NCBI GenBank assembly: GCA_001816585.1
Contig: MHCJ01000006.1
Coordinates: 40 to 64,039 of the forward strand
From: Candidatus Chisholmbacteria bacterium RIFCSPHIGHO2_01_FULL_52_32
Lineage (GTDB): Bacteria > Patescibacteriota > Microgenomatia > UBA1400 > Chisholmbacteraceae
Direction of reading: 5' to 3'
Length of the DNA stretch: 64,000 nt
Part shown: positions 1-42,827 of the stretch, in pieces
Numbering within the stretch: position 1 is the stretch's first letter
How the letters are laid out: each line of letters opens with the position of its first letter
Translations under genes and position numbers: made by a program
Notes under the pieces: model-generated
What the model was told of the DNA's origin: nothing
The model's input: only the letters and a program-made list of their open reading frames with translations
Databases searched by the model: none

Positions 1-980
1 TTCCCCTTGATAGTCCTTGATTTCCCTTGATACCCCTTGGCGGCGTCCAAGCCGCCCGCGCTCACCTGGAAGTACTTCAGGAACAATTCCAGCGTATCCG
101 GGTAGGGGACGAAGTCCGCATCAAACACGACGATGAATTCCGCTCTGGGGTCAGTGGCTTTGAGGGCTTCTTTGAGTGCTCCTCCCTTGAAGCCTGCCCG
201 GGTATCTCTATGGAGAAGCTTGATAAGGGGCGTAGAGCCTAGGGCATAGGGCGTAGCGTCTCCCTCTGTATTCTCTGCTCTCTGCTCTCTGCCCTCTGCC
301 CTTAGCCCTAAGCGCTTAGCATTCCATTCTTCGGCAAACTGCCGAACAATGGCCGTGGTCTCATCCGTACTGTCATCGCAGACGATCACTTCATACCGCT
401 CATAATCGAAGGAGCTGCAGGCTTTAAGGAGTCTCTCCACCACCCGCGGTTCGTTGTAGACGGGGAGATGGATGGAGATGAAGGGATACCGCTCAAGCTT
501 CACCTGGGAGACATCGGGCTCCAATCCTCCTCCCCTCTGCTCTTCGCTCTCTGCCATCCGCCCTCCACCCTCAACCCTCGACCCTAAACCCTCTCCTCTC
601 ATCATCCCTATCCCGAACAGCTTCCCCAACCATCCCGTTTTGAATTTGCCTGCCCTGAGCTTTGTCGAAGGGGAAGGTGAAATTTGAAGTGTATGTGGAA
701 CTTGTGATTGGTCATTGGTGATTTCTTCCGAAGCTTCTCTTGAAAAGCTCAACACGACTGCCAGGGTGAAGTAGTACTTGAGGGAATAAAGGAAGAAGAG
801 AGTGCCGGAAATAAGCGCCAGGGAGGCAAACACCCATCCCAGAGCTTGGATCGAGTTGGTGGCAGTTCCCAAGAGTCTTCCCCATGCGAAAAGCCCAAAG
901 AAGATAAAGATTGAGAGAAGGATAAACGTGGAGAAACGCCGAAGGAGGAGGACCGCTTGCCTCGCCGAAGTCCTGAGCAT
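1..980 (-). CDS. Family 2 glycosyltransferase, CesA/hyaluronan-synthase-like; partial, runs off the window start. N-terminal TM helix after Met at 978-980, then a low-complexity G/E/R linker.
   Basis: Manual minus-strand translation gives ...YPFISIHLPVYNEPRVVERLLKACSSFDYERYEVIVCDDSTDETTAIVRQFAEEW...EFIVVFDADFVPYPDTLELF..., a GT2 DXD-type catalytic region. The frame stays open to position 1. It is missing from the ORF track because there is no stop inside the window. Confidence 0.6.
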   Translation of the reverse strand, partial: MLRTSARQAVLLLRRFSTFILLSIFIFFGLFAWGRLLGTATNSIQALGWVFASLALISGTLFFLYSLKYYFTLAVVLSFSREASEEITNDQSQVPHTLQISPSPSTKLRAGKFKTGWLGKLFGIGMMRGEGLGSRVEGGGRMAESEEQRGGGLEPDVSQVKLERYPFISIHLPVYNEPRVVERLLKACSSFDYERYEVIVCDDSTDETTAIVRQFAEEWNAKRLGLRAEGREQRAENTEGDATPYALGSTPLIKLLHRDTRAGFKGGALKEALKATDPRAEFIVVFDADFVPYPDTLELFLKYFQVSAGGLDAAKGYQGKSRTIKG

Positions 981-1937
981 ATCGAAGGACGGAGGCGGGG
1001 CGGGAGCCCGCGTCGGCACGAACTGCTCCCATACTTGCTTGAGCCGATCTTGCCAGGATAGTGCAGGCCGTACCGCCAATGTTACTGGCGTGTGCGCCTG
1101 GGCGTAAGCTAATCGCCTTTCAAATGTATTCAAACTATATCGTAACAATATATTCTGTATCGCATGATGACCTATATCCGGTATCTGCGCCTTTAGTCGA
1201 TGTACGGAAAGCCGGGGTTCCGCAACCACCGCCTCCAGCACTCGCGAAACGACGATTGGAGGCGTCCAGCGCCGATGCAGATCACCAACCGCATACCGAT
1301 CACCCAAGGATTCAATAAGGAAAGCCTCGCGCAGCTTTGCCTCTTCGTATCGCTGTTTCCAAAAATAGAAAGTCTTCCGACTCACCCGAAATTCCCGACA
1401 AGCCTCACCCACGCGCTTTCCTTCTAAGAGCACAGCTTCAATCAACCGCTTTCGACTATTAGGTAAAAGGCGAAAAGCCCGACGCCCCAAAACATCCGTA
1501 ACCCCCTTCACGGTCTGATGAAGCCGGCTGAACTCCTCACGCTGCGAAGCCGTAGAAAGATCAAGTTCTTTGAGTAAAGTGTGGATGGCGTGATGGCCAA
1601 TTTCCTTTCCGCAGTTGCGTAGCGCTTGACAGATCTGTCTGCTACTCCACTCGGGGTGGGAAACCACAAAACGAAGGACAAATCGCCGGAACTTGCTCCG
1701 ACGCTCCCGTGGGTGTTCGGAGCCCATAGGGTAGCGAAACTGAAGGGCCAAGCGACTCCCCCGCCCCCGACGTCCCTCCCACAACCGCTTCCAGCAGTAG
1801 AAGGTTTTTCGCGAAATGCCATTCTCCCGGCAAACAAGCGAAACCGGCTTCTTTTCCTCAAGTACAAGCCTCAAGATTCGCTCACGAACATGCGCAGGAA
1901 AACGTTTGAAGCGGTGCAATTTGAATGGGGCAGACAT
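981..1937 (-). CDS. Two tandem copies of an IS481-family-transposase-like N-terminal DNA-binding module (HTH plus integrase N-terminal HTH). No DDE catalytic domain. Same frame as the downstream GT2 with no intervening stop.
   Basis: Translated codon by codon from Met 1935-1937. Rep1 is RERILRLVLEEKKPVSLVCRENGISRKTFYCWKRL...VVSHPEWSSRQICQALRNCGKEIGHHAIHTLLKEL and rep2 is RKRLIEAVLLEGKRVGEACREFRVSRKTFYFWKQRY...RRWTPPIVVSRVLEAVVAEPRLSVHRLKAQIPDIGHHAIQNILLRY. There is no stop until 1974-1976 (TAG) upstream of the Met. Confidence 0.4.
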
Positions 1938-2410
1938 CCAAATTCGTCCAATCTTTAACCGATTGAGCTGAGTCTAATGGGCAGTGTTGTTCTCAGGCCT
2001 ATGTTAAGTGTTACCAACCATGGGTACTCTTGTCAAGTAGCCGAGGGGTTAAAATTCCATGATTTTTCACGGCCGAAAAAAAGTGCAAATTACGGCCAAA
2101 AAACCAGACGGAAATATACAGGAGAAGAAAAGCTATAAGCCAGTATAGAATTCAATGCTATAGAGTCTTAGAGAATATAATATAGTGTCTATGAGTGAAG
2201 TATCTCCACAACCCGAGAGAAGTCAATTCCAGAGGAAAAGCAAAGCCTAAAGAAGGCTAACTCCCTTCCCTCTTCCACTCAACAACCCCAAGAATCCAAA
2301 ACAGTCTCCGAATCCAACCAAACAGAGAAAAAATCAAAAAACCAGCTGAATTGAGGAAAGAATGTCCTTCTTTTCAGAAGAGAACACGCTCCAGTCCCCC
2401 TAAAACGCCT

Positions 2411-2740
2411 TCAAGAGAGCTGGGGATACTTTTCTAACTCCTGGGAACGGCAAATAAAGCAGTGCGTCCGCGTGTACCGGAAGCTTACAGCCCGCACCAC
2501 CAGCTCATAGACAGAAGAAAGACAAAGTGATACTCCGGTAAAAAGAAAGCCAAGCCCGAGGATGTACGACAAAGGCGAAGGAAGCGTTTGGAGCAAATAG
2601 TAACCAAGGAGAGCCAACAGTAGAAAAGAACCAGACAGGATACTGTATTTGACGGCCCCAACGAAACCCACCAGAAGGTGATGCCACCAAACGTGATTCC
2701 CTGTCAAGAACGCCTTTTCCATCACTCCTATTATCCGCAA
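2411..2740 (-). CDS. Hypothetical small membrane protein.
   Basis: ORF-track entry with hydrophobic segments. An overlapping alternative frame (2505..2828) exists. AT-rich surroundings. Confidence 0.25.
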   Translation of the reverse strand: MRIIGVMEKAFLTGNHVWWHHLLVGFVGAVKYSILSGSFLLLALLGYYLLQTLPSPLSYILGLGFLFTGVSLCLSSVYELVVRAVSFRYTRTHCFICRSQELEKYPQLS

Positions 2741-2856: not shown

Positions 2857-3594
2857 CTACTGAAGTGCCTGGTCGATCATGCTTTTGAAGTTTGCAAACG
2901 GCATCGCCCCAACCAGAATCTTCCCGTTGATATAAAAGCCCGGTGTCCCCCCGATCCCAAGCTCCTGAGCTAAGGCAACATCCTTCAACACTTGATCTTG
3001 ATGGGTACCATCCTTAAGACAGGCCGAAAGCTCTCCGCCATTAAGCCCGAGCGAACTCCCAAAGCCAAGGAACGCATCCGTCGGATCTCCGGTCGACCAT
3101 TCCTCCTGTTTCCCAAACAGGAGATCATGCATTTCCCAATACTTTCCCTGATCCCCGGCGCATCGTGCAAGCTGGGCTGCCGAAGGGGCATTAGGATGAT
3201 TCGGTAGTGGAAAATCCCGAACGAGATATTTGACCTTGCCCGTCTGAATGTAGTCCTTCTCAATCTGCGGCAGCGTTTCATCGAAATGTCTCTTACAATA
3301 GGGACACTGATAATCGGTGAACTCAACGATCGTAACCCGCGCGCCATCTTTACCTTGGGAAACAGCTGACTCGGAGATAACCCTCTGCCACTGTTCTTCG
3401 GAAAGAGTCTCTGAAGCCTGTGGCTGTGCCGATCCGACTTGCTGATTTTGCGCTCCTGGTGTCTGTACGGAAGATCCCGCAGGGGATCCCCCCTTCTTAA
3501 GCAACTCCACTTGCCCTTGGTACCGTCCCAGCAAAAACACCACTACAATCAGAAGTCCAACAAGCAGAGGCAGAAGTTTTACAGGAATTTTCAT
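2857..3594 (-). CDS. DsbA-like thiol:disulfide oxidoreductase with thioredoxin fold and an N-terminal signal/TM.
   Basis: CPYC active-site motif (DYQCPYCKRHF) and an N-terminal hydrophobic segment. Confidence 0.75.
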   Translation of the reverse strand: MKIPVKLLPLLVGLLIVVVFLLGRYQGQVELLKKGGSPAGSSVQTPGAQNQQVGSAQPQASETLSEEQWQRVISESAVSQGKDGARVTIVEFTDYQCPYCKRHFDETLPQIEKDYIQTGKVKYLVRDFPLPNHPNAPSAAQLARCAGDQGKYWEMHDLLFGKQEEWSTGDPTDAFLGFGSSLGLNGGELSACLKDGTHQDQVLKDVALAQELGIGGTPGFYINGKILVGAMPFANFKSMIDQALQ

Positions 3595-3661
3595 AACAGA
3601 GTCCCCACTATACGCGACAAGAAAAACCCTGTCAATAAGCGTGAAGAGGAGCGTGTAGGGT

Positions 3662-4978
3662 TTAGAAATTCCCTTTGCCCTCTGCCCTATGCCCCCTTAG
3701 CATCATTGCATCCGCCACCCGTTGCACCGCTAGGATGTACGCCGCCGTGTGGAGGTCAACCTTCTTTTCCTGGGCCAATTCCCAAACAGCCGCAAAGGCA
3801 GCCTCCATGATCTCTCCTAATCGTTCAAACACCAATGTTTTTGTCCAATAGTATCCGGACAGATTCTGGACCCATTCAAAATAGGAGGCCGTCACTCCTC
3901 CGGCATTCGCGAGGATGTCGGGAACCAGGACGACGCCTTTCTTTCGAAGCACCACGGCAGCGGCTTCCGTCACAGGTCCATTAGCCATCTCAATGATCGC
4001 CTTGGCTCGAACCGACTGAACGTTATGGATGCCAATTACTCCCTCCATCGCTGCCGGTACCAGCACATCGACATCAAGTGTCAATAGCTCGTCGTCCGAT
4101 ATCGCCTTTCCATGACGAAGATCACAAACGGACCCGACGCAATAACAGCTGGCGATCTTCCCTTTCTCTTCCTTACAAGCCAGGGTTAGCTGTGGATTCA
4201 ATCCCTTGGGCACGGATACGGCTCCTTTGCTATCTCCTGCAGCCACAACGGTAAACCCTGCCTTATCCGCAAAGTGGGCAAACCAGTATCCGACATTCCC
4301 GAAACCCTGGATTGCGATGGTCGCGTGTCGCTTTTTCAGACCGAGTTTCGCGGCCAGGAGCTTAAGGATAATCGACCCGCCAAATCCGGTTGCCTCTTCT
4401 CTCCCTAACGAACCGCCCAATGCTACCGGCTTCCCCGTAATAACTGCGTAAGGGCTTTCATCATTTTGACTTTTGACTTTTGACTTTTGACTTTGAATTT
4501 TTTGGTACTCATCCACCATCCAAGCCATAATCTGGGCATTCGTATTCAGATCCGGCGCCGGGACATCCTTCCATGCCCCAAAATAGGGCGCAAACACCCG
4601 CATGTAGGCTCGGGAAAGGCGTTCAAGCTCGCCCGATGAAAGGGTCTTGGGATCAACCACAACACCACCCTTCGCCCCGCCGAAAGGGATACCGACCACG
4701 GCGCACTTCCAGGTCATCCACAGGGAAAGCGCCTTCATCTCTGCCTCATTCACTTGAGGGTGATAGCGGATCCCTCCCTTAAACGGGCCCCTGGCATCGT
4801 TGTGTTGGCTGCGAAATGCGGGGAACTTCCGTATCTTCCCGTCATCCATCTTCACGGATAGCAACTTCCTAATAAATCTTTTCGGAAACTTAAGTTGCTC
4901 AACCATGTCCGCCGGAGCATCCAGATACGGCCTCGCTTCCTCAAGCTGTTTGATAGCATCCTGGTATGGATTCTCCAT
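3662..4978 (-). CDS. gdhA: Glutamate dehydrogenase, NAD(P)+ dependent.
   Basis: Full-length GDH signatures: KGGIRYHP, the GIPFGGAKGG glycine-rich region, and an NAD-binding GFGNVG. It carries an in-frame repeat insert, QKSKVKSQ. Confidence 0.9.
   Translation of the reverse strand: MENPYQDAIKQLEEARPYLDAPADMVEQLKFPKRFIRKLLSVKMDDGKIRKFPAFRSQHNDARGPFKGGIRYHPQVNEAEMKALSLWMTWKCAVVGIPFGGAKGGVVVDPKTLSSGELERLSRAYMRVFAPYFGAWKDVPAPDLNTNAQIMAWMVDEYQKIQSQKSKVKSQNDESPYAVITGKPVALGGSLGREEATGFGGSIILKLLAAKLGLKKRHATIAIQGFGNVGYWFAHFADKAGFTVVAAGDSKGAVSVPKGLNPQLTLACKEEKGKIASCYCVGSVCDLRHGKAISDDELLTLDVDVLVPAAMEGVIGIHNVQSVRAKAIIEMANGPVTEAAAVVLRKKGVVLVPDILANAGGVTASYFEWVQNLSGYYWTKTLVFERLGEIMEAAFAAVWELAQEKKVDLHTAAYILAVQRVADAMMLRGHRAEGKGNF
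4464..4503. repeat. Tandem heptamer repeat (TTTTGAC)x4 plus degenerate units, inside gdhA and in frame. Encodes SQKSKVKSQN.
   Basis: Direct reading: ttttgacttttgacttttgacttttgactttgaattttttg. Confidence 0.85.
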
Positions 4979-5019
4979 TTATCTCCTAATCTTTGCTAAT
5001 TTTGAACTTTAAGCTGTCT

Positions 5020-6012
5020 TCACCAACTCTGCATACTACCCGTCAGGTACTTCTCGACATCAAGTGCAGCCATACACCCCATTCCCGCCGCGGTCACTGC
5101 CTGCCGGTATCGAAAATCAACCACATCCCCGGCCCCGAAAACACCCTGAACTGAAGTCATGGTCGGATAGTCCTCAAGCCACGTTTTTTGGGGTATATCG
5201 CTCCAGGAAGAAGTCAGTTTGGTCACCAAATAGCCCTTTTGATCAAGTTCGACCTGTCCGTCAAAGATGGATGTCTCCGGAACATGACCAATGGAAATAA
5301 ATAGTCCGTCAGTCGCAAGTTCCTCCTTTTTACCGGTCTTTGTATCCTCAACGGTAATCGCCTCAAGTTTCTTTTCTCCCGTCACCCCAACCACTTGACT
5401 GTTCCAACGTGACTTGACGCGATCTTTATGGCCTTCAAGGACCCGCTCTTGCATGATTTTGGAGGCGCGTAGCGTATCTCTTCGATGAATCAAGGTCACC
5501 GACCGGGCATACCGGACAAGAGCTAAAACCTCTTCCATCGCGGCATCCCCGCCGCCAACCACAAAGGTCACCTTATCCTTGAAGAATGCGGCATCGCAAA
5601 CCGCGCAGGTCGAGACCCCCCGCCCCAAGAGCCGCTCTTCACCGACTCCGAGTAGCCGTGCCCTTGCCCCCGTCGCGATGATAACTGCCTTCCCAAGGTA
5701 TTCCTTACGCTCATTTCCCTGATCAGTCCAAATCCGAAATGGCTGTTTGGAAAAATCAACGCCTGAAGCGGTCACATCGAAGATTTCTGCCCCAAACCGC
5801 TTCGCCTGCTCCCGCATCGAAGCCATGAGTTCAGGTCCTAAAATCCCCCGCTGGAAGCCGGGGTAATTTTCAACCTCGGTCGTCAACATTAATTGGCCTC
5901 CGTGCTTTTCCCCTGCAAGCACCACAGGCGAAAGCTTCGCCCGAGCCAGATAGAGACCTGCAGTATATCCTGCCGGGCCCGAACCGATGATGACAACATC
6001 GTAAATTCGCAT
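5020..6012 (-). CDS. trxB: Thioredoxin-disulfide reductase.
   Basis: Two-domain FAD/NAD(P) fold with GSGPAG and redox-active CAVCD. Confidence 0.85.
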   Translation of the reverse strand: MRIYDVVIIGSGPAGYTAGLYLARAKLSPVVLAGEKHGGQLMLTTEVENYPGFQRGILGPELMASMREQAKRFGAEIFDVTASGVDFSKQPFRIWTDQGNERKEYLGKAVIIATGARARLLGVGEERLLGRGVSTCAVCDAAFFKDKVTFVVGGGDAAMEEVLALVRYARSVTLIHRRDTLRASKIMQERVLEGHKDRVKSRWNSQVVGVTGEKKLEAITVEDTKTGKKEELATDGLFISIGHVPETSIFDGQVELDQKGYLVTKLTSSWSDIPQKTWLEDYPTMTSVQGVFGAGDVVDFRYRQAVTAAGMGCMAALDVEKYLTGSMQSW

Positions 6013-9903: not shown

Positions 9904-10840
9904 ACGACCTTTTTCTATTCAATGAGTATAATAATAACCCACCAAGAACAATCGATAAAACACCCATCCCCTGGGCAACATTAATCCCAAAAATAGCCCA
10001 CTGACTAATCCGTAACACCTCAAGCCCAAATCGACCCGCCCCATACAGTATAAGATACACGAAAAAATAGCTCCCTGCATGCAAGCGGAACCTCTTCCTC
10101 CAAATCAAAAACAGAACACCGAAAACGCCAAGCGAATACAGCGATTCGTAGAGGAAAAGGGGATGAAAATGGGTAAAATCCTCAAAACCGGCCATCCGAA
10201 ACTCGGGCGGGATAAAAAGACCCCAGGGAAGATCAGTCGGTTTCCCGTAGAGCTCCCGATTAAAAAAGTTTCCCCACCTCCCGATCGCCTGCCCAATCGG
10301 CAAGCCGAACGCCGCCAGATCAGAAAAAGCTAAAAATCGGTTCCTTACGCATTCAGAAAAGAGCGCGGACGTCTTTTCGTGCAGCGAACTACGGCCAGGC
10401 TGAAAGCCTGCCAGGCTTAACAACGAAGAAAGCTTCTCTAACCAAACCTTAGGAAACAAACGAAAAGTATGTCCGCGCTCACGACGGCATAACCACCAGC
10501 AAAACATCCACAATCCAAAGATCCCTCCGGCAATCGCCCCAAAAATCCCAAGCCCCCCCGTCCAAAGAGCGGGAATCAGGGCGAGGTGTTCCCGATAGTA
10601 CTCCCACAGATCGACTACATGATAGATACGCGCCCCAACAATCCCAGGTACCACCACCCACCACAACGATCCCCAAACATCGTTTGGGGATAATTCGAAT
10701 TTCGAATTTCGAATTTCGAATTTTCGCGCGAAGCGCGAGGCCACCCAAAATCCGACCAGAATCCCCAGTCCTACGAGAAGACCATAGGGGTGAATCATCA
10801 GTGAGAAAGTTTCCATTCTGCTTCCTCTATTGTAGCCCAA
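9890..10840 (-). CDS. lgt: Prolipoprotein diacylglyceryl transferase.
   Basis: Polytopic, with the Lgt signature region (...GRWGNFFNRELYGKPTDLPWGL...). An in-frame repeat insert, ARKFEIRNSKFEL, sits near the N-terminus. Confidence 0.8.
   Translation of the reverse strand: MGYNRGSRMETFSLMIHPYGLLVGLGILVGFWVASRFARKFEIRNSKFELSPNDVWGSLWWVVVPGIVGARIYHVVDLWEYYREHLALIPALWTGGLGIFGAIAGGIFGLWMFCWWLCRRERGHTFRLFPKVWLEKLSSLLSLAGFQPGRSSLHEKTSALFSECVRNRFLAFSDLAAFGLPIGQAIGRWGNFFNRELYGKPTDLPWGLFIPPEFRMAGFEDFTHFHPLFLYESLYSLGVFGVLFLIWRKRFRLHAGSYFFVYLILYGAGRFGLEVLRISQWAIFGINVAQGMGVLSIVLGGLLLYSLNRKRSYERN
10693..10726. repeat. Tandem heptamer repeat (ATTCGAA)x4, inside lgt and in frame.
   Basis: taattcgaatttcgaatttcgaatttcgaattttcg. 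Confidence 0.85.
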
Positions 10841-12128: not shown

Positions 12129-12458
12129 CTATTTCTTTCCCTTCTTGGCGGAGTTATTCCACAGACATCTCCCCAAATCCACATGCATCTCATCTCGAAA
12201 ACTCACTCCCTCAGCCTGCAACCTCCTTCGCTGCTCCGTCGCTCCGTCAAAGACAAAATTCGGCGCCAGTCTGCCGTTTCGGTCCACCACCCGGTGACAT
12301 GGCACCTTTGGATCGTTATTCGCATGCATTGCATGCCCGACCCTCCGCGCATCCCGTGTACCTAATGCCCTCGCGACCTCGCCATACGTTGTCACTCGGC
12401 CTCGCGGAATCTTCTTCACAACCCTGTAAACATCCTTAAAAAAACTCATAGATTCCAA
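12129..12458 (-). CDS. MGMT-family (O6-alkylguanine-DNA alkyltransferase DNA-binding domain) protein.
   Basis: 109 aa with the PCHRVV active-site motif and a HTH (TYGEVARALG). Confidence 0.7.
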   Translation of the reverse strand: MESMSFFKDVYRVVKKIPRGRVTTYGEVARALGTRDARRVGHAMHANNDPKVPCHRVVDRNGRLAPNFVFDGATEQRRRLQAEGVSFRDEMHVDLGRCLWNNSAKKGKK

Positions 12459-13723: not shown

Positions 13724-14029
13724 TCATTTGTTCTCCTCATACAACGGCTCCCCTTTCTTCAACTTGGTCAATGCCCACATAAAGAGCTTTGCTTTGGAAC
13801 GCACGTTCCGAGCGTCCTTCACAAACGTCCGCGCCTGCTCGAGGTGGGCACGATTGGATACTTTGGCCAATTTGATGTAGAGGCTCTTATTCCGCTCATC
13901 GGAAAGCTCCATCGCTAAGCGATACCCATAATCCTGGAACTCCTGGGTAATATACTTCTTTTTATCCCAGTCGTATTCAAGGAGAAGTTTACCGATTGAT
14001 TGGAATTTCGCGTCCCGCTTCCTGCCCAT
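13724..14029 (-). CDS. Hypothetical protein.
   Basis: 101-aa ORF-track entry, basic, no recognised motif. Confidence 0.3.
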   Translation of the reverse strand: MGRKRDAKFQSIGKLLLEYDWDKKKYITQEFQDYGYRLAMELSDERNKSLYIKLAKVSNRAHLEQARTFVKDARNVRSKAKLFMWALTKLKKGEPLYEENK

Positions 14030-22113: not shown

Positions 22114-23880
22114 CTACTTGCCCTGCAACTGGTAAAGCGTGCTCACTTCTGCCATTGTCGTTGCCTGCCCGGGACCTTTATCATCGCGGAAGCGTACGAG
22201 CCTTGGAAACCGCAAAGCGAGCCCGGCGGAGTGTACCGGAGAGCGAGTGATGTTATCAGCCGCAATCTCAACCACAAGTGAAGGACGGGTCCAAATATCT
22301 GGCGCAAGAGTCTTCCCGATGTCTCCGTACTCCTTCGGCTTATCCGAAACAGCCAAACGATCAGCCCGAAGCCTCAGCTCTTTCCATTGTTCATCCGAAA
22401 GTCCGGTACCGATTTTGGAAATGGTGACAAAGTGCCCGCCTTTCGGAATCCCAACCAAAAAACCTCCGATGCCAAAACTCGCCCTTTTCCCCCGACCGCG
22501 ATAATAGCCCATCACGACGCAATCTAACGTATCGGAAAGCCCGGCAGTTCTCTCCTCAGCTTCCTTGTACTTCACCCAACTCCACCCACGTCTGCCCGGA
22601 GAGTATGGGGCGTTCCACTTTTTAACCACCGCTCCTTCTAGCCCCGCCGTAAGTTGCTTGGCATGAAACTGACGAAGCACGTTCGGATCTTCGGTCACGA
22701 TGCGCTCGGTCTTCATTAACACTTTCCCTCCAGCAAGAGTCTGCTCAAGAAGGGCGGCCCGATTGGAAAGAGGCAGATGAAGGAGGCTCCTTCCGTCCTT
22801 ATAAAGAATGTCAAAAACGAAAAACCGCAAAGGGACTTTCGCTGCTGCTTCGAGAATCGCGTGCTTCCGCTTTCTGGTGATGATCTCTTGAAACGGGAGA
22901 ATTTTACCGGAAGAAGTATCATACGAAACGGCCTCACTATCCAAAATAACTTCACGGGCAGACAGATCAGCGGTAATCCTCCCAAGCTCCGGAAACATAA
23001 ACGACACTTCCTCCAAATTCCGCGTAAACGCCCTCAAGAACACTCCCTTCGCTTTGCCCTTTGCGCTTTGCCCTTTGCGCTTTGCCCAGTGTATCTGCAC
23101 CCGCTGTCCGTCGTATTTTGGTTCCACCGCCACCCTGCCCATTTTCGCAATCATTTCTTGAGGAGATTTTAGCCGCTGGCAGAGTGCCGGCATAACGGGA
23201 ACACCGAGCTTCGCCGCAATACCCGAAAGGCCTGAAACGCCCTTTTTCTTAAAAAGCGCCGCAATCGCTCCGATATCAGCCCGCACGAAATAGGCCTGCT
23301 CAAGCCGCGGCCGCAAAGTTTTCGTTCCCGTCTTCATCCACGAAAGCGCGTCCAAAATAGTCACATCCGAAAACCCCAGTCGAAGTCGACCCAACACCAT
23401 CCGGACAACATATTTGCAGCTTACTGAATCGAGTTCATGAAGAAGCAAAACAAGTCCTTCTATCTTCCGCTGTTGACTCCCCTCCCCGTTTTCTTCCGCA
23501 ATCTTCCGCAATCTCCCATAGACCTCTAACATGGACAGTTTTGAGCTTCGAGTTGTAGCTATAACTTTTAACTTTTCACTTTTAACTTTTAACTTTTCTG
23601 CCACTTCCCCCAAATCCCCGACCTCCTTATACGTTTCCCTGACCCGATCTTCAGAAACGTTAAAAGCCTGCCCGATCACCCGAATGATCATCTTTTCTGC
23701 CAGCTGAAATTCTAATGGCTCGTAAAGCGGCGCCAATCTTCCCAAGGAAAGATAACAGAGAATAGCAATTTCCGTACTGGAAGCAGAGGAAAATAAATCA
23801 GCCAGAACCTCAGTGATTGCAAGTCGTGAGGTTATCCCTTCGAGTTTGGCAAAAAAGGAAGACAGTGTTGCAAAAGTCAT
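22114..23880 (-). CDS. ATP-dependent DNA ligase.
   Basis: Motif I KYDGQR (adenylation lysine) and an OB-fold C-terminus. Contains two in-frame repeat inserts: SAKGKAKG and KLKVKSEKLKV. Confidence 0.85.
   Translation of the reverse strand: MTFATLSSFFAKLEGITSRLAITEVLADLFSSASSTEIAILCYLSLGRLAPLYEPLEFQLAEKMIIRVIGQAFNVSEDRVRETYKEVGDLGEVAEKLKVKSEKLKVIATTRSSKLSMLEVYGRLRKIAEENGEGSQQRKIEGLVLLLHELDSVSCKYVVRMVLGRLRLGFSDVTILDALSWMKTGTKTLRPRLEQAYFVRADIGAIAALFKKKGVSGLSGIAAKLGVPVMPALCQRLKSPQEMIAKMGRVAVEPKYDGQRVQIHWAKRKGQSAKGKAKGVFLRAFTRNLEEVSFMFPELGRITADLSAREVILDSEAVSYDTSSGKILPFQEIITRKRKHAILEAAAKVPLRFFVFDILYKDGRSLLHLPLSNRAALLEQTLAGGKVLMKTERIVTEDPNVLRQFHAKQLTAGLEGAVVKKWNAPYSPGRRGWSWVKYKEAEERTAGLSDTLDCVVMGYYRGRGKRASFGIGGFLVGIPKGGHFVTISKIGTGLSDEQWKELRLRADRLAVSDKPKEYGDIGKTLAPDIWTRPSLVVEIAADNITRSPVHSAGLALRFPRLVRFRDDKGPGQATTMAEVSTLYQLQGK
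23052..23086. repeat. Tandem heptamer repeat (CTTTGCC/CTTTGCG)x5, inside the ligase gene and in frame. Encodes an AKGKAKG-type peptide.
   Basis: ctttgccctttgcgctttgccctttgcgctttgcc. Confidence 0.85.
23563..23598. repeat. Tandem heptamer repeat (AACTTTT/CACTTTT), inside the ligase gene and in frame.
   Basis: aacttttaacttttcacttttaacttttaacttttc. Confidence 0.85.
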
Positions 23881-37170: not shown

Positions 37171-37176
37171 GCTCTG

Positions 37177-37249
37177 TGCTAGGGGTGGGATTCGAACCCA
37201 CGACCTATCGCTTATGAAACGACCGCTCTGCCACTGAGCTACCCTAGCA
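37177..37249 (-). tRNA. tRNA with anticodon CAU, either elongator Met or Ile2/lysidine. They cannot be distinguished by eye.
   Basis: Minus-strand cloverleaf: GCUAGGG / UA / GCUC-AGUGGCAGA-GAGC / GUCGU-UUCAUAA-GCGAU / AGGUC / GUGGG-UUCGAAU-CCCAC / CCCUAGC-A. Confidence 0.85.
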
Positions 37250-37295: not shown

Positions 37296-37578
37296 CTTGA
37301 GTGTTGCGGGGCCAGGAGTTGAACCTGGTCTGCGAGATTATGCGTGTTGTTTTCTCCAGTTTCCTGGAGTACCGGACTATGTCTTAACCCGTTAGATAAT
37401 CATAATCACATATCTAATGGGTTCCTGGCGTATAGTCTCTACGGATTCCCATTCAAGGTCTTTCCTCGGCGTTGCCGTACTCAGTTCATGAGGGTAGGTT
37501 TCGCCGATATAGCCAGGTGCACTCCATCAATTACTCGATAGAGGGCCCATCATTGAGCCTCACGTGCTACCGTACACT
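37296..37578 (-). tRNA. Initiator tRNA-fMet (CAU) interrupted by a group I intron in the anticodon loop.
   Basis: 5' exon CGCGGGGUAGUGUACGGUAGCACGUGAGGCU. 3' exon CAUAAUCUCGCAGACCAGGUUCAACUCCUGGCCCCGCAA. The C1 x A72 mismatch and the CGCGGGG...CCCCGCAA acceptor are initiator hallmarks (compare E. coli tRNAfMet CGCGGGG...CCCCCGCAACCA). The spliced anticodon loop is CUCAUAA. Confidence 0.7.
37335..37547 (-). ncRNA. Group I intron of about 213 nt inserted between U33 and C34 of tRNA-fMet.
   Basis: The 5' exon ends in U (the P1 U-G pair) and the intron ends in G. The core elements resemble the R and S elements as I recall them from group I introns such as Tetrahymena's (written from memory): GUAGAGACUAUACG against an R-like ucAGAGACUAnA, and UAAGACAUAGUCCGG against an S-like AAGAUAUAGUCC. 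An IGS-like GGGCCCUC can pair with the exon end GAGGCU. Confidence 0.65.
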
Positions 37579-37734
37579 ACCCCGCGCGTTGTCAAAACGA
37601 GCCAATTTTACCAAATTCCTCTGGAAAAATCAACCTAAAAAAACGTCTCTCTCTAAACGCATTTCAATTGGACCAAGAAGCATGAAGTATTGAGTAAGAA
37701 GGAAATAAACTCGCTTTGGGGATCTCTTCTTGAA

Positions 37735-39593: not shown

Positions 39594-39651
39594 CCTCACT
39601 ATAACACACAATCAAAGCGAGCAAAAGAAGGAAAAGAAATAAACACGATTG

Positions 39652-39723
39652 TGCGCCCGCTTGGATTCGAACCAAGGACATCTACTTTATAAGAGTAGCG
39701 CTCTGCCGCTGAGCTACGGGCGC
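39652..39723 (-). tRNA. tRNA-Ile with anticodon UAU (reads AUA).
   Basis: Minus-strand cloverleaf: GCGCCCG / UA / GCUC-AGCGGCAGA-GC / CUACU-CUUAUAA-AGUAG / AUGUC / CUUGG-UUCGAAU-CCAAG / CGGGCGC-A. Positions 34-36 are UAU. Confidence 0.75.
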
Positions 39724-42193: not shown

Positions 42194-42326
42194 ATCTGAT
42201 AACCTTCCCTCTCTTTGCTCTCCCAGTGAAGTAACGCTCCGCGTACTTCACGGGATCCCGTGAGATATAAAAGTTATCTCACTGGGATCTGCTCTACGCC
42301 CTATGCTCTATGCTCTAAGCTCTCTG

Positions 42327-42827
42327 CTATTTCTTCCCAAGAGCATATTTCTTTGCCATCCGAATGCACCACTCCGCCAGCCAGCGAATGCTGTCAAACA
42401 GCTTGTAATGAAGTCCCTTCTTAATGCCCGTATCGTCAAGCGGCAACGTGACACTCACTGCCTGCGGCGCTGCCGGGGAAACAATCGGCTTCCCCTTATG
42501 AACGATAACCGGCGGTTCCGCCACCTCATCCTTTTCCACCCGCTCAAGCCATCCCTCCACATCCGGAGGAAGCTCCTTGGGAGGACCAATTTCAACAATC
42601 GGATGTGTTTCCGTCGGACTCACTCCTGTACTTGGTTCCTTCTCTTTTGCGGCCGTCGGTTGACCTGCCTGTGGTTGAGAGCCTGACGGCGCCTCAATCA
42701 CCTTCCCCGCCTCTTGCGGTACCACCCCGGCTTGATCTGTTTGTGACGAAGGCGGCCCAACGGAAGAAGGCTGTGCACTTGAAGGTAATCCGCCCTCAGC
42801 ATTCCCTTGCCCACCAGGTGTATCCAT
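42327..42827 (-). CDS. Hypothetical Pro/Gln-rich protein.
   Basis: 166-aa ORF with low-complexity P/Q/S-rich N-terminal two thirds. Confidence 0.35.
   Translation of the reverse strand: MDTPGGQGNAEGGLPSSAQPSSVGPPSSQTDQAGVVPQEAGKVIEAPSGSQPQAGQPTAAKEKEPSTGVSPTETHPIVEIGPPKELPPDVEGWLERVEKDEVAEPPVIVHKGKPIVSPAAPQAVSVTLPLDDTGIKKGLHYKLFDSIRWLAEWCIRMAKKYALGKK

What the first reader, a model, noticed from the sequence alone, without database searches (positions are those of the whole stretch)
1..1937. Continuous ORF of more than 645 codons fusing two IS481-transposase-like HTH modules to a membrane-anchored GT2 glycosyltransferase
Manual translation shows no stop from Met 1935 to the window edge. The first 320 or so residues are two homologous copies of a transposase N-terminal DNA-binding module (HTH plus a second HTH with the IGHHAI motif) and there is no DDE domain. 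Then comes a TM helix and a GT2 catalytic domain. Random sequence at this GC content would be expected to hit a stop well within about 320 codons. So this is either a domesticated DNA-binding-glycosyltransferase fusion or a very recent IS remnant.
Basis: seen in the sequence. Interest (0 to 1): 0.55.

Follow-up and report, generated by a model that had tools for sequence, protein, structure and literature searches.

The report
DNA-binding polysaccharide synthase of CPR bacteria
The open reading frame is real and is the first 645 codons of a conserved gene of uncultivated Patescibacteria in which two DNA-binding modules of transposase origin are permanently fused to a membrane polysaccharide synthase, probably so that the enzyme controls its own promoter.

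Summary
A stop-free 645-codon frame runs on the minus strand from ATG 1937 to the window edge. It encodes two homologous IS481-like double-HTH modules and no DDE domain. Two (not one) transmembrane helices follow, then the N-terminal half of a GT2 domain.

It is not an IS remnant. The same collinear architecture is found in 106 ORFs from 103 public loci, and in 132 clusters at E<1e-30, at 30-60% identity. All named sources are Patescibacteria (Microgenomates group). The closest relatives share the window's gene order: TrxB, Glu dehydrogenase, DsbA, small membrane protein, then this gene.

Full-length relatives are 682-3587 aa, median 1557. They carry the processive-synthase motifs (DxD, TED, QxxRW), a BcsA/hyaluronan-synthase-like fold and a large extracellular part. 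43 of 54 end in a VPE + helix + basic sorting signal, usually followed by an exosortase-family gene.

A family-specific promoter element, TTGACA-N-GTACCCAT-N-GGTAACA (window 2036-2008), precedes these genes and almost nothing else. Its two boxes co-vary with two HTH recognition helices, even between paralogs in one genome.

Best reading: a self-regulating, membrane-tethered synthase. The architecture is shown. DNA binding is inferred.

The parts
1..1937 (-). 5' part (645 codons) of the HTH-HTH-TM-GT2 gene; the 3' part lies beyond the left edge of the window
1488..1937 (-). DNA-binding module 1 (residues 1-150). First HTH about residues 11-57, recognition helix ISRKTFYCW (SRKTFY = nt 1797-1814). 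Second HTH about residues 76-135 with IGHHAI (nt 1584-1601). pI 11.2
1038..1487 (-). DNA-binding module 2 (residues 151-300), a duplicate of module 1. First HTH has VSRKTFYFW (SRKTFY = nt 1365-1382). Second HTH has IGHHAIQNIL (IGHHAI = nt 1158-1175). This is the better conserved module (invariant R187, P241, L269, R275). pI 10.9
933..1037 (-). Conserved linker (residues 301-335) with RLKxVxxxFxP..APAPPP (APAPPP = nt 990-1007)
741..932 (-). Two transmembrane helices (about residues 336-358 and 363-387) followed by the family signature FFLYSLKYYFTLAVVLSFSR (FFLYSLKYY = nt 771-797)
528..740 (-). Variable low-complexity cytoplasmic loop (residues 400-470). It holds a heptanucleotide array (nt 561-593) that encodes GEGLGSRVEGGG
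3..527 (-). N-terminal half of the GT2 catalytic domain (residues 471-645): YNEPRV, DDSTDE (nt 360-377), HRDTRAGFKGGAL, FDADF (the DxD motif, nt 111-125). It is interrupted by variable inserts that hold heptamer arrays at nt 228-256 and 272-299 and a 10-nt array at nt 4-39
2008..2036 (-). Family-specific promoter/operator element TTGACA-AGA-GTACCCAT-GGTT-GGTAACA-C: a -35 hexamer, a spacer box and a -10-proximal box. It occurs once in the 64 kb
2411..2722 (-). Upstream gene for a conserved small (103 aa) membrane protein ending in a CxxC-like motif. 46% identical to its counterpart in L004, and found next to family genes in 15 other loci
2857..6012 (-). Syntenic upstream genes: DsbA-like thioredoxin (2857-3594), Glu/Leu/Phe/Val dehydrogenase (3662-4978), thioredoxin-reductase-like Pyr_redox_2 (5020-6012). 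L002 and L004 have the same order

Best explanation
Shown.
- The ORF is the 5' part of a member of a conserved, uncharacterised protein family of Patescibacteria (Microgenomates group).
- The domain order is: two tandem bipartite HTH modules of transposase (IS481-like) origin without any DDE domain, a Pro-rich linker, two TM helices, then a GT2 domain.
- In full-length relatives the GT2 domain has all motifs of processive membrane synthases (D, DxD, TED, QxxRW) and a BcsA/hyaluronan-synthase-like fold. It is followed by a TM bundle and a large variable extracellular region. The protein ends in a [VI]PEx + hydrophobic helix + Lys/Arg sorting signal. A gene of the exosortase/archaeosortase family usually lies directly downstream.
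- Family genes carry a dedicated promoter element, TTGACA-N(1-6)-(G)TACCCAT-N(4-8)-G(G/T)TAACA.

Inferred.
- The enzyme makes and exports a beta-linked polysaccharide at the membrane.
- With two TM helices before the cytoplasmic GT2 domain, the very basic N-terminal modules also face the cytoplasm.
- The modules bind the spacer box and the -10-proximal box of the protein's own promoter. The membrane-tethered synthase thereby feeds back on its own transcription, most simply as a repressor sitting between -35 and -10.
- The pair of DNA site and DNA-binding domain may descend from an IS end plus the transposase N-terminus. Truncated transposase N-terminal proteins repress IS promoters in this way (own knowledge: IS1 InsA, IS911 OrfA).

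Confidence by step: conserved functional fusion, not an IS remnant, >0.95; processive GT2 synthase, about 0.85; DNA binding to its own promoter, about 0.5.
For: Architecture and conservation.
- 37 word-indexed homologs, about 30 of them with the HTH + GT2 architecture, at 31-49% identity.
- The exhaustive search with residues 1-400 gave 442 hits, 132 clusters at E<1e-30, mostly collinear over residues 11-400 and up to 3509 aa long.
- About 20 genome loci carry the architecture, and those with informative names are Woesebacteria, Chisholmbacteria, Curtissbacteria, CPR3 or Patescibacteria.
- 194 metagenome relatives were confirmed.
- 106 collinear ORFs against one internal split ORF.
- Synteny with L002 and L004.
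- Intact ORFs of 1498 aa (L005) and 1295 aa (L010, in a complete Woesebacteria chromosome).

Selection on the modules.
- HTH subdomains show 29-37% mean pairwise identity, against 19-24% in the linkers and loops.
- Invariant residues sit in the recognition helices.
- pI is about 11 for both modules.
- The AF2 model is confident, with pLDDT >90 inside the four helical subdomains.
- The best structural and sequence matches are Pax paired domains, the Tc3 bipartite DNA-binding domain, CENP-B and the Sleeping Beauty RED subdomain.

Synthase.
- Motifs SITEDF and QRMRW in orthologs.
- BcsA and chondroitin synthase by PDB profile search.
- Foldseek of the P0004 model: BcsA 9e-15, hyaluronan synthases 3e-11, Chs1.

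Sorting system in relatives.
- 43 of 54 complete ORFs end in the signal.
- The roughly 190-aa neighbours pass the TIGR04178 cut-off in 4 of the 5 scanned (32.7-38.3 bits against 23; the fifth scores 22.7).
- Such a neighbour is present in 52 of 103 loci, mostly directly downstream.

Promoter element.
- Conserved across orthologs.
- TTGACA.{14,19}TAACA: 60 occurrences upstream of family genes against 17 elsewhere in 1.2 Mb. After dereplication there are 70 distinct occurrences; 54 were assigned to family starts automatically, and about 9 more coincide by coordinates with family starts that the ORF caller had placed upstream of the motif.
- It occurs once in the window and once in 825 kb of HTH-less control loci.
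- The canonical TTGACA-N16-18-TAnnAT shows the opposite distribution, 19 against 51.

Covariation.
- Spacer box xCCCA pairs with a module-2 second-HTH helix H[GA]x[QHY] in 38 of 39 cases. All 10 [WFY][TS]xW helices pair with TTAGGATGG-type boxes.
- GGTAACA pairs with a module-1 first-HTH helix of SRKT type in 32 of 34 cases. GTTAACA pairs with SR[VT][LV] in 11 of 18 and never with SRKT.
- Paralogs in one locus or genome carry different matched pairs: L005, L010, L117, L119, L121.
- Two HTH-less CPR paralogs (L021) lack the element.
Against: - No experiment exists and no cultured member is known.
- The covariation is structured by clade and may reflect only about 2-4 independent events. Promoter and N-terminal coding region are physically linked, so they are inherited together.
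- The element contains the -35 and -10 hexamers themselves, so an unusual sigma factor or an unlinked regulator could explain part of its conservation.
- Foldseek support for the paired-like fold is statistically weak (E 0.6-2.7).
- Only about half of the distinct family upstream regions match the strict pattern (52 of 107).
- The window copy is cut at residue 645, so its integrity, its sorting signal and its exosortase partner are unverified. No exosortase homolog lies in the 64 kb.
- Several relatives carry frameshifts or premature stops (P0007, P0013, L085).
- The polymer made is unknown. Scores against the CelA and PgaC equivalog models are far below their cut-offs.
Confidence: 0.55

Rival explanations
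1. The HTH modules bind DNA, but not as gene-specific autoregulators. They would anchor the chromosome or other DNA (for example DNA taken up from outside) to the membrane at the synthase, or hold the template near the membrane to help co-translational insertion of a giant protein. The conserved promoter element would then be read by another factor, such as a special sigma factor or an unlinked regulator.
For: The modules are very basic (pI about 11). There are four HTH subdomains per protein. The products are very large, with a median of 1557 aa and a maximum of 3587. The element includes the -35 and -10 hexamers themselves.
Against: Recognition helices are conserved in subfamily-specific forms that track promoter-box variants. 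Paralogs in one genome have different matched pairs, which a shared trans factor or non-specific binding does not predict.
Confidence: 0.2
2. The modules no longer bind DNA. They would act as a cytoplasmic regulatory or interaction domain of the synthase, for example gating the active site as PilZ does in BcsA, binding acidic lipids or a nucleotide signal, or recruiting partner proteins.
For: Processive GT2 synthases often carry cytoplasmic regulatory domains, and BcsA-type enzymes are the top structural hits. HTH-less relatives with the same TM + GT2 core exist in Chloroflexota and Dormibacterota, so the core works without the modules. Module 1 is reduced in some members (P0026, P0028, P0031, P0015).
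Against: The conserved residues are the canonical recognition-helix positions (SRxTxYxW, HGVQN). The closest folds are DNA-bound paired, Tc3 and CENP-B domains. This rival does not explain the family-specific promoter element or its covariation with the helices.
Confidence: 0.15
3. The ORF is a recent IS481 remnant, an assembly chimera or a pseudogene whose open frame is accidental.
For: The N-terminus matches transposase profiles. The gene is cut by the window edge inside a repeat-rich stretch. Some relatives are broken.
Against: P(no stop) is 6e-13. 106 collinear ORFs occur in 103 independent loci at 30-60% identity. Synteny is conserved. There is no DDE domain and no second copy of the HTH modules in the window. 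None of the 150 best exhaustive hits looks like a transposase: they either extend into the linker/TM region or are short fragments.
Confidence: 0.02

Closest known systems
Processive membrane-integrated GT2 synthases (bacterial cellulose synthase BcsA, PgaC/IcaA, NodC/chitin synthases, hyaluronan synthases)
   Same: GT-A fold GT2 domain between TM helices. D, DxD, TED and QxxRW motifs. Top structural hits are BcsA at 9e-15, hyaluronan synthases at 3e-11 and Chs1. PDB profile hits are BcsA and chondroitin synthase.
   Different: Far below the equivalog cut-offs: CelA 36-85 bits against 699, PgaC 34-98 against 422. No PilZ domain. Instead it has N-terminal tandem HTH modules, a giant extracellular C-terminal region and a C-terminal sorting signal. 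The product is unknown.
PEP-CTERM/exosortase (EpsH) protein-sorting systems linked to exopolysaccharide loci (Haft et al. 2006, PMC1569441), and the NCBIfam families of XrtG- and XrtP-associated GT2 glycosyltransferases
   Same: In relatives, a tripartite C-terminal signal (short motif, TM helix, basic cluster) lies next to a small polytopic exosortase-family protein that passes TIGR04178, together with a GT2 enzyme. Haft et al. also report a conserved DNA motif upstream of PEP-CTERM genes.
   Different: The motif is [VI]PE[NKRYF], not PEP, and no NCBIfam CTERM model matches the tails. No specific exosortase subfamily model is reached. Here the sorted protein and the GT2 are one polypeptide. 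Scores against the XrtG/XrtP-associated GT models are far below their cut-offs (24 against 364, 49 against 520). Not verifiable for the window copy.
N-terminal DNA-binding regions of IS481/IS3/IS630 transposases and their truncated repressor forms (IS1 InsA, IS911 OrfA; own knowledge)
   Same: HTH_Tnp_1, HTH_28 and HTH_32 profile matches. The IS481 model matches at positions 2-114 (E 3e-21). The proposed action, binding a site that overlaps the element's own promoter, is how those repressors work.
   Different: No DDE/rve domain, no inverted repeats and no multiple copies. The module is duplicated in tandem and fused to a membrane enzyme, at a fixed chromosomal position.
Paired-type bipartite HTH domains derived from transposases (Pax paired domain, Tc3/Sleeping Beauty DNA-binding domain, CENP-B)
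   Same: Each module is two three-helix HTH subdomains joined by a linker. The top Foldseek hits are 6pax, 1k78, 1pdn, 1u78 and 1hlv. The Sleeping Beauty RED subdomain 5unk is found by profile search (E 0.006). The PAX Pfam model hits the ortholog weakly.
   Different: All these matches are statistically weak. This is a bacterial, tandemly duplicated, membrane-tethered version.
Enzymes and membrane proteins that double as transcription factors (PutA, BirA; ToxR/CadC/TcpP membrane-bound one-component regulators; own knowledge)
   Same: A cytoplasmic DNA-binding domain on the same chain as an enzyme or a membrane anchor, with proposed autoregulation.
   Different: The DNA-binding folds differ (RHH in PutA, winged helix in ToxR/CadC), and none is fused to a polysaccharide synthase. 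This is an analogy only; membership is not claimed.

Membership tests
IS481-family transposase (NCBIfam NF033577) | N-terminal HTH DNA-binding region | tested here: met
   Matches model positions 2-114 of 284, twice in the protein. Pfam finds HTH_Tnp_1, HTH_28 and HTH_32 twice each.
IS481-family transposase (NCBIfam NF033577) | DDE (rve) catalytic domain and a whole-protein score above the curated cut-off | tested here: not met
   No rve/DDE hit in the window protein or in full-length orthologs. Score is 76.3 bits against a cut-off of 224.
IS481-family transposase (NCBIfam NF033577) | Behaves as a mobile element: repeated copies, variable location | tested here: not met
   tblastn finds no second copy of the modules in the 64 kb. 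The chromosomal neighbourhood is the same in L002 and L004.
Processive membrane GT2 synthases (BcsA/PgaC/chitin synthase/HAS type) | GT2 (GT-A) catalytic domain with a UDP-binding D and the DxD motif | tested here: met
   PF00535 at E 1e-16. DDSTDE at 521-526 and FDADF at 605-609.
Processive membrane GT2 synthases (BcsA/PgaC/chitin synthase/HAS type) | TED catalytic motif and QxxRW motif | tested here: inconclusive
   The window copy is cut before these motifs. All orthologs that reach this region have SITEDF, and QRMRW is present in all but the truncated P0007.
Processive membrane GT2 synthases (BcsA/PgaC/chitin synthase/HAS type) | Catalytic domain embedded between TM helices that form a channel; overall fold | tested here: met
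   Two TM helices lie before the domain in the window copy. The ortholog P0004 model has a C-terminal TM bundle, and Foldseek gives BcsA 9e-15 and HAS 3e-11. This was tested on an ortholog, not on the truncated window copy.
Processive membrane GT2 synthases (BcsA/PgaC/chitin synthase/HAS type) | Makes and translocates a defined polymer | not testable with these tools
   Needs biochemistry. The CelA and PgaC equivalog cut-offs are not reached.
PEP-CTERM / exosortase sorting system | Adjacent exosortase/archaeosortase-family membrane protein | tested here: inconclusive
   Relatives: 52 of 103 loci have one, mostly directly downstream. Of 5 neighbours scanned, 4 pass TIGR04178 (32.7-38.3 bits against a cut-off of 23) and one scores 22.7. 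Window: the downstream side is off the edge, and none lies in the 64 kb.
PEP-CTERM / exosortase sorting system | C-terminal PEP motif + TM helix + basic cluster that matches a curated CTERM model | tested here: not met
   43 of 54 complete relatives have [VI]PEx + helix + K/R. The motif is not PEP, and no NCBIfam CTERM model matches 7 tails. The C-terminus of the window copy is not available.
XrtG- or XrtP-associated GT2 (TIGR03111, NF053846) | Whole-protein score above the curated cut-off | tested here: not met
   24 bits against 364 and 49 bits against 520 for full-length orthologs.
Paired-like bipartite HTH DNA-binding domain (Tc1/mariner, IS630, Pax) | Two three-helix HTH subdomains joined by a linker, structurally superposable on paired or Tc3 domains | tested here: inconclusive
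Paired-like bipartite HTH DNA-binding domain (Tc1/mariner, IS630, Pax) | Sequence-specific DNA binding | not testable with these tools
   Only indirect evidence: the family-specific promoter element and its covariation with the recognition helices.

The most novel reading that the evidence does not exclude
One polypeptide is at once a sequence-specific transcription factor for its own gene, a polysaccharide synthase and an exosortase-sorted surface protein. Its DNA-binding modules and their operator would be a co-domesticated pair, a transposase N-terminus plus an IS end that carries the promoter. After gene duplication, helix and box diverged together, so that each paralog in a genome reads only its own promoter. 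Binding would also hold the gene at the membrane where its giant product is inserted. This would be a bacterial counterpart of Pax/CENP-B-type transposase domestication, and a new class of membrane-tethered enzyme-regulator in the Candidate Phyla Radiation.
Probability: 0.4. Interest if true: 0.78.

Novelty: new variant of a known kind. Interest (0 to 1): 0.6.

Why it matters
**Regulation in Patescibacteria.** These bacteria have tiny genomes and few recognisable regulators, and no tested regulatory circuit for their surface structures is known to me. Here hundreds of their largest surface-related genes carry a built-in DNA-binding domain and a matching promoter element. That gives a concrete hypothesis, testable in vitro, for how they control envelope or polysaccharide production.

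**Transposase domestication.** This would be a clear prokaryotic case of a transposase DNA-binding domain turned into a host regulatory module, with specificity that diversified among paralogs.

**A new sorting cassette.** The family ties a processive GT2 synthase, a new exosortase subfamily and a new VPE-type sorting signal into one cassette in monoderm-like CPR cells. This is relevant to how these episymbionts build the surface they use to attach to hosts.

**Annotation.** Pipelines currently split or mislabel these genes as 'transposase', 'HTH domain-containing protein' or 'glycosyltransferase, partial'.

Tried and rejected
- **Extending the gene beyond the window edge.** An exact 40-mer search of metagenome contigs found nothing. 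The best genome contigs relative is only 43% identical, so the source contig is in neither collection.
- **An intact IS or second module copy.** tblastn of both modules against the 64 kb returned only self hits.
- **IS-like inverted or direct repeats in the 473-nt upstream region.** Only short, chance-level repeats were found.
- **Regulated intramembrane proteolysis that would release the HTH part.** The M50 peptidase gene near L005 has no counterpart in the other 102 loci.
- **Membership of the C-terminal tails in known CTERM sorting families.** No NCBIfam model matches.
- **Membership of the neighbour in a named exosortase subfamily.** Only the generic signature model is passed.
- **Function of the 460-720 aa conserved neighbour.** No Pfam or NCBIfam family was found. 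It is a polytopic membrane protein with a soluble C-terminal part.
- **Literature.** Searches combining transposase, HTH, glycosyltransferase, Patescibacteria and exosortase found no description of this architecture.
- **The apparently separate HTH-only gene in the closest relative (P0012/L085).** It results from a deletion plus frameshift between TM1 and TM2, not from a separate-gene design.
Full report
**1. The observation**

Translating window 1-1937 on the minus strand gives 645 codons without a stop, and the frame continues past the left edge.
- The other five frames of the stretch hold 17-32 stops. From base composition, the probability of an open frame this long is 6e-13.
- ATG 1937 is the first start codon after an in-frame TAG 13 codons upstream, and it aligns with the N-termini of homologs.
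- Pfam finds transposase-type HTH families (HTH_Tnp_1, HTH_28, HTH_23, HTH_32) twice each, a GT2 domain at 488-624, and no rve/DDE domain.
- NCBIfam's best model is the IS481 transposase, but only its N-terminal positions 2-114 of 284, at 76 bits against a cut-off of 224.
- Residues 1-150 and 151-310 are 35% identical (E 3e-17). Each contains SRKTFY and IGHHAI.

Two details of the finding need correction. There are two hydrophobic helices (about 336-358 and 363-387), not one. Only the first half of the GT2 domain is in the window: DDSTDE at 521-526 and FDADF at 605-609.

**2. Not an IS remnant: a conserved family at a conserved locus**

- A word-indexed search returned 37 homologs. About 30 have the same HTH + GT2 architecture at 31-49% identity. 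Their source names are only automatic ones, such as 'transposase-like protein', 'glycosyltransferase, partial' and 'Patescibacteria group bacterium'.
- The exhaustive search with residues 1-400 found 442 proteins, 132 clusters (at 50% identity) at E<1e-30. Most are collinear over residues 11-400 and up to 3509 aa long. None of the 150 best looks like a transposase.
- One-genome-per-species contigs gave about 20 loci with the full architecture. Those with informative names are Woesebacteria, Chisholmbacteria, Curtissbacteria, CPR3 or 'Patescibacteria group', that is, the Microgenomates group.
- Relatives that lack the modules and match only from residue about 355 onwards (TM + GT2) occur in Chloroflexota, Dormibacterota and others.
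- JGI metagenomes added 194 confirmed relatives.
- Across 103 loci I found 106 ORFs collinear from the HTH modules into GT2. Only one HTH-only ORF does not lie at a contig edge. That one, L085/P0012, the closest relative at 60% identity, results from a deletion plus frameshift between the two TM helices.
- The window's gene order is TrxB-like, Glu dehydrogenase, DsbA-like, small membrane protein, then this gene. The order is the same in L002 and L004.
- No second copy of the modules lies in the 64 kb.
- The HTH subdomains are kept at 29-37% mean pairwise identity, while linkers and loops drop to 19-24%. The invariant residues lie in the recognition helices.

The 'domesticated fusion' alternative is therefore supported, and the 'recent IS remnant' alternative is refuted.

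**3. What the whole protein looks like (from relatives)**

Complete ORFs range from 682 to 3587 aa, with a median of 1557. Examples are 1498 aa in L005 and 1295 aa in the complete Woesebacteria chromosome L010.
- After the part seen in the window come GYQWHVLNKSENW, SITEDF (TED) and QRMRW (QxxRW), then a TM bundle.
- A profile search of PDB sequences hits BcsA and chondroitin synthase.
- The AF2 model of the 891-aa homolog P0004 (mean pLDDT 70.5) matches BcsA at 9e-15, hyaluronan synthases at 3e-11 and yeast Chs1.

This is the signature of a processive, membrane-integrated beta-glycan synthase. The polymer cannot be named, because the CelA and PgaC equivalog scores are far below their cut-offs.

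Beyond the synthase lies a large, variable, presumably extracellular region.
- 43 of 54 complete ORFs end in [VI]PE[NKRYF] + hydrophobic helix + Lys/Arg cluster. This has the tripartite form of a PEP-CTERM-type sorting signal (PMC1569441), but no curated CTERM model matches it.
- A roughly 190-aa polytopic protein is present in 52 of 103 loci, mostly directly downstream on the same strand. Of 5 such neighbours scanned, 4 pass the generic exosortase/archaeosortase signature TIGR04178 (32.7-38.3 bits against a cut-off of 23), and none reaches a specific subfamily model.
- A 460-720 aa polytopic membrane protein of unknown family occurs in 41 loci.
- Tandem paralogs are common.

For the window copy none of this can be checked, because the 3' end and the downstream genes are off the edge. 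No exosortase homolog lies within the 64 kb.

**4. The DNA-binding modules**

- The AF2 model of residues 1-345 is confident, with mean pLDDT 83.6 and >90 inside the domains. It shows two modules, each made of two three-helix HTH subdomains joined by a linker.
- The Foldseek E-values are weak (0.6-2.7). Even so, the list is headed by Pax6, Pax5 and Prd paired domains on DNA, the Tc3 bipartite domain, CENP-B and transposase N-termini.
- The family profile finds the Sleeping Beauty RED subdomain (E 0.006).
- Both modules have pI about 11.
- With two TM helices before the cytoplasmic GT2 domain, the modules must also be cytoplasmic (inference from topology).

**5. A dedicated promoter element**

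Aligning the upstream regions of the window, L004, L002 and L005 revealed a conserved block, cTTGACAAGAGTACCCATGGTTGGTAACAC, at window 2036-2008. It has the form of a -35/-10 promoter with a conserved spacer. It occurs once in the window.

| Pattern | Upstream of family genes | Elsewhere | Sequence searched |
|---|---|---|---|
| TTGACA-N14-19-TAACA | 60 | 17 | 1.2 Mb, family loci |
| TTGACA-N1-6-ACCCA | 35 | 10 | 1.2 Mb, family loci |
| Canonical TTGACA-N16-18-TAnnAT | 19 | 51 | 1.2 Mb, family loci |
| TTGACA-N14-19-TAACA | n/a | 1 | 825 kb, HTH-less loci of other phyla |

- After dereplication, 54 of 70 distinct occurrences of the first pattern sit at family gene starts. About 9 more coincide by coordinates with family starts that my ORF caller had placed upstream of the motif.
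- One further copy precedes the 460-aa partner gene in L014.
- The two HTH-less CPR paralogs in L021 lack the element. One of them has a separate small excisionase-like HTH gene upstream.

**6. Covariation**

Among 63 distinct genes with the element:

| DNA box | Helix compared | Result |
|---|---|---|
| Spacer box xCCCA (e.g. GTACCCAT) | Module-2 second HTH | H[GA]x[QHY] (IGNHGVQNVL type) in 38 of 39 |
| Spacer box TTAGGATGG / TTAGCATGG type | Module-2 second HTH | Holds all 10 helices of the SSWTIWSIL type |
| Spacer box GTTCCCATGG (intermediate) | Module-2 second HTH | SSHG[VI]YNVL |
| -10-proximal box GGTAACA | Module-1 first HTH | [SA]RK[TAS] in 32 of 34; never SR[VT][LV] |
| -10-proximal box GTTAACA | Module-1 first HTH | SR[VT][LV]FYR in 11 of 18; never SRKT |

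The two features change semi-independently; three combinations are seen. Paralogs within one locus or genome (L005, L010, L117, L119, L121) carry different matched pairs. The window copy has the pair GTACCCAT/GGTAACA with HAIQ/SRKT.

A housekeeping sigma factor or any single shared regulator would not predict different conserved boxes for paralogs in one cell. Neutral drift would not keep each variant conserved within its subfamily. The simplest reading is that each protein reads its own promoter.

Caveat: the pattern is structured by clade and may rest on only a few independent events.

**7. Mechanism proposed**

Shown: the architecture, its conservation, the synthase signature, the sorting signal and exosortase in relatives, and the family-specific promoter element and its covariation.

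Inferred:
- The N-terminal modules bind the spacer box and the -10-proximal box of their own promoter. The membrane-tethered synthase thereby autoregulates, most simply as a repressor that occupies the -35/-10 spacer.
- The module and site pair plausibly descends from a transposase N-terminus and the IS end that carried its promoter. Truncated transposase N-terminal proteins such as IS1 InsA or IS911 OrfA repress their elements in this way (own knowledge).
- The synthase makes a beta-glycan. In relatives the extracellular part is processed by the neighbouring exosortase-like protein.

Rivals:
- Non-specific DNA or nucleoid tethering, with the element read by another factor (0.2).
- A non-DNA regulatory domain (0.15).
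- An IS remnant or artefact (0.02).

**8. Comparison with what is known, and novelty**

The protein works like a BcsA/PgaC/HAS-type synthase, but it fails the curated equivalog cut-offs and has a different accessory architecture. It resembles exosortase-linked EPS systems, but with an unrecognised signal and exosortase subfamily, and with synthase and cargo fused in one chain. Its modules are transposase-like, but it fails every defining feature of a transposase other than the HTH.

I found no paper that describes the architecture. Databases hold only automatic names. I rate it a new variant of known kinds. The autoregulatory, co-diversifying HTH and operator pair is the part that would be really new if confirmed.

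**9. Limits**

- The window copy is truncated at residue 645, inside a repeat-rich variable loop.
- Some relatives are frameshifted at similar loops (P0013, P0001 C-terminus) or stop early (P0007).
- All functional statements are computational.

Noticed in passing
window 37303-37586 (minus strand): Rfam calls a group I intron at 37353-37565 (82.7 bits). It sits in the anticodon loop of an initiator-type tRNA gene: 5' exon CGCGGGGTAGTGTACGGTAGCACGTGAGGCTCA, 3' exon ATAATCTCGCAGACCAGGTTCAACTCCTGGCCCCGCAACA. ARAGORN did not call this gene. An intron-split tRNA-fMet(CAT) is known from cyanobacteria (own knowledge). The elongator tRNA-Met at 37176-37248 follows it.
   Followed up: partly
whole window, e.g. 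4464-4494, 10694-10723, 23052-23087, 23562-23597, 42290-42328; inside the ORF at 228-256, 272-299, 561-593 and (period 10) 4-39: There are 22 short tandem arrays of heptanucleotides (3-7 copies, many different units), against 0 in 30 block shuffles. Some lie inside conserved genes (for example the Glu dehydrogenase ORF), and they encode the low-complexity loops of the HTH-GT2 protein. Similar repeat-encoded peptides (GEGLGSRVEGGG, KGYQGESRVIKG) occur in homologs, the second in a different loop. Such arrays are about 5 times denser in the CPR family loci than in loci of other phyla (1.49 against 0.27 per 10 kb). They resemble cyanobacterial STRR repeats (own knowledge). Because 7 is not a multiple of 3, copy-number change would shift the frame, so phase variation is possible.
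   Followed up: partly
window 2411-2722 (minus strand): A conserved small membrane protein (103 aa, two TM helices, C-terminal RTHCxxCR) lies directly upstream of the HTH-GT2 gene. It is 46% identical to L004 9218-9499, and homologs lie near family genes in 15 other loci. No family was assigned.
   Followed up: partly
relatives: L010 13872-14435, L003 5786-6418, L018 15411-15983 and 49 more loci; C-termini of 43 of 54 complete family ORFs: An unrecognised exosortase/archaeosortase subfamily (about 190 aa; the generic TIGR04178 signature is passed by 4 of 5 scanned, and no subfamily model is reached) is paired with a new [VI]PEx + TM helix + K/R C-terminal signal carried by the synthase itself. 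No paper in the searched library mentions exosortases in Patescibacteria.
   Followed up: yes
relatives: L010 8443-9825, L005 14616-16238, L002 7105-9234 and 38 more loci: A conserved 460-720 aa polytopic membrane protein (at least 8 TM helices plus a soluble C-terminal part, no Pfam or NCBIfam family) accompanies the family gene. In L014 it carries the same promoter element. There is no homolog in the window.
   Followed up: partly
L085 2290-2330; L002 about 12129-12181; L001 12226-12329; L003 1840-2123: Several relatives have broken copies: a deletion plus frameshift between TM1 and TM2 (L085), a frameshift in the variable GT2 loop (P0013/L002), a stop right after QRMRF (P0007/L001), and a first HTH split off (L003). 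Whether these are assembly errors, pseudogenes or repeat-driven on/off states is unresolved.
   Followed up: partly
L021 about 13830-14025: An HTH-less CPR paralog of the synthase is preceded by a separate small excisionase/MerR-like HTH ORF (MDPKELPILLNIRQVSKILGVHPDTLREWDNTGRLKAVRLGSRRDRRW...). This hints that a DNA-binding partner can be supplied in trans where it is not fused.
   Followed up: no
window 39651-39723 (minus strand): tRNA-Ile with anticodon TAT (UAU), which is uncommon in bacteria (own knowledge).
   Followed up: no
L005, L011, L013, L016, L018-L020, L026, L032 (record titles): TPA_asm MAG records titled 'uncultured Gammaproteobacteria bacterium' carry this CPR-type gene, and L005 partly shares the window's upstream gene set (the thioredoxin, TrxB-like and small membrane protein genes). 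The organism labels look like placeholders or mis-assignments.
   Followed up: no
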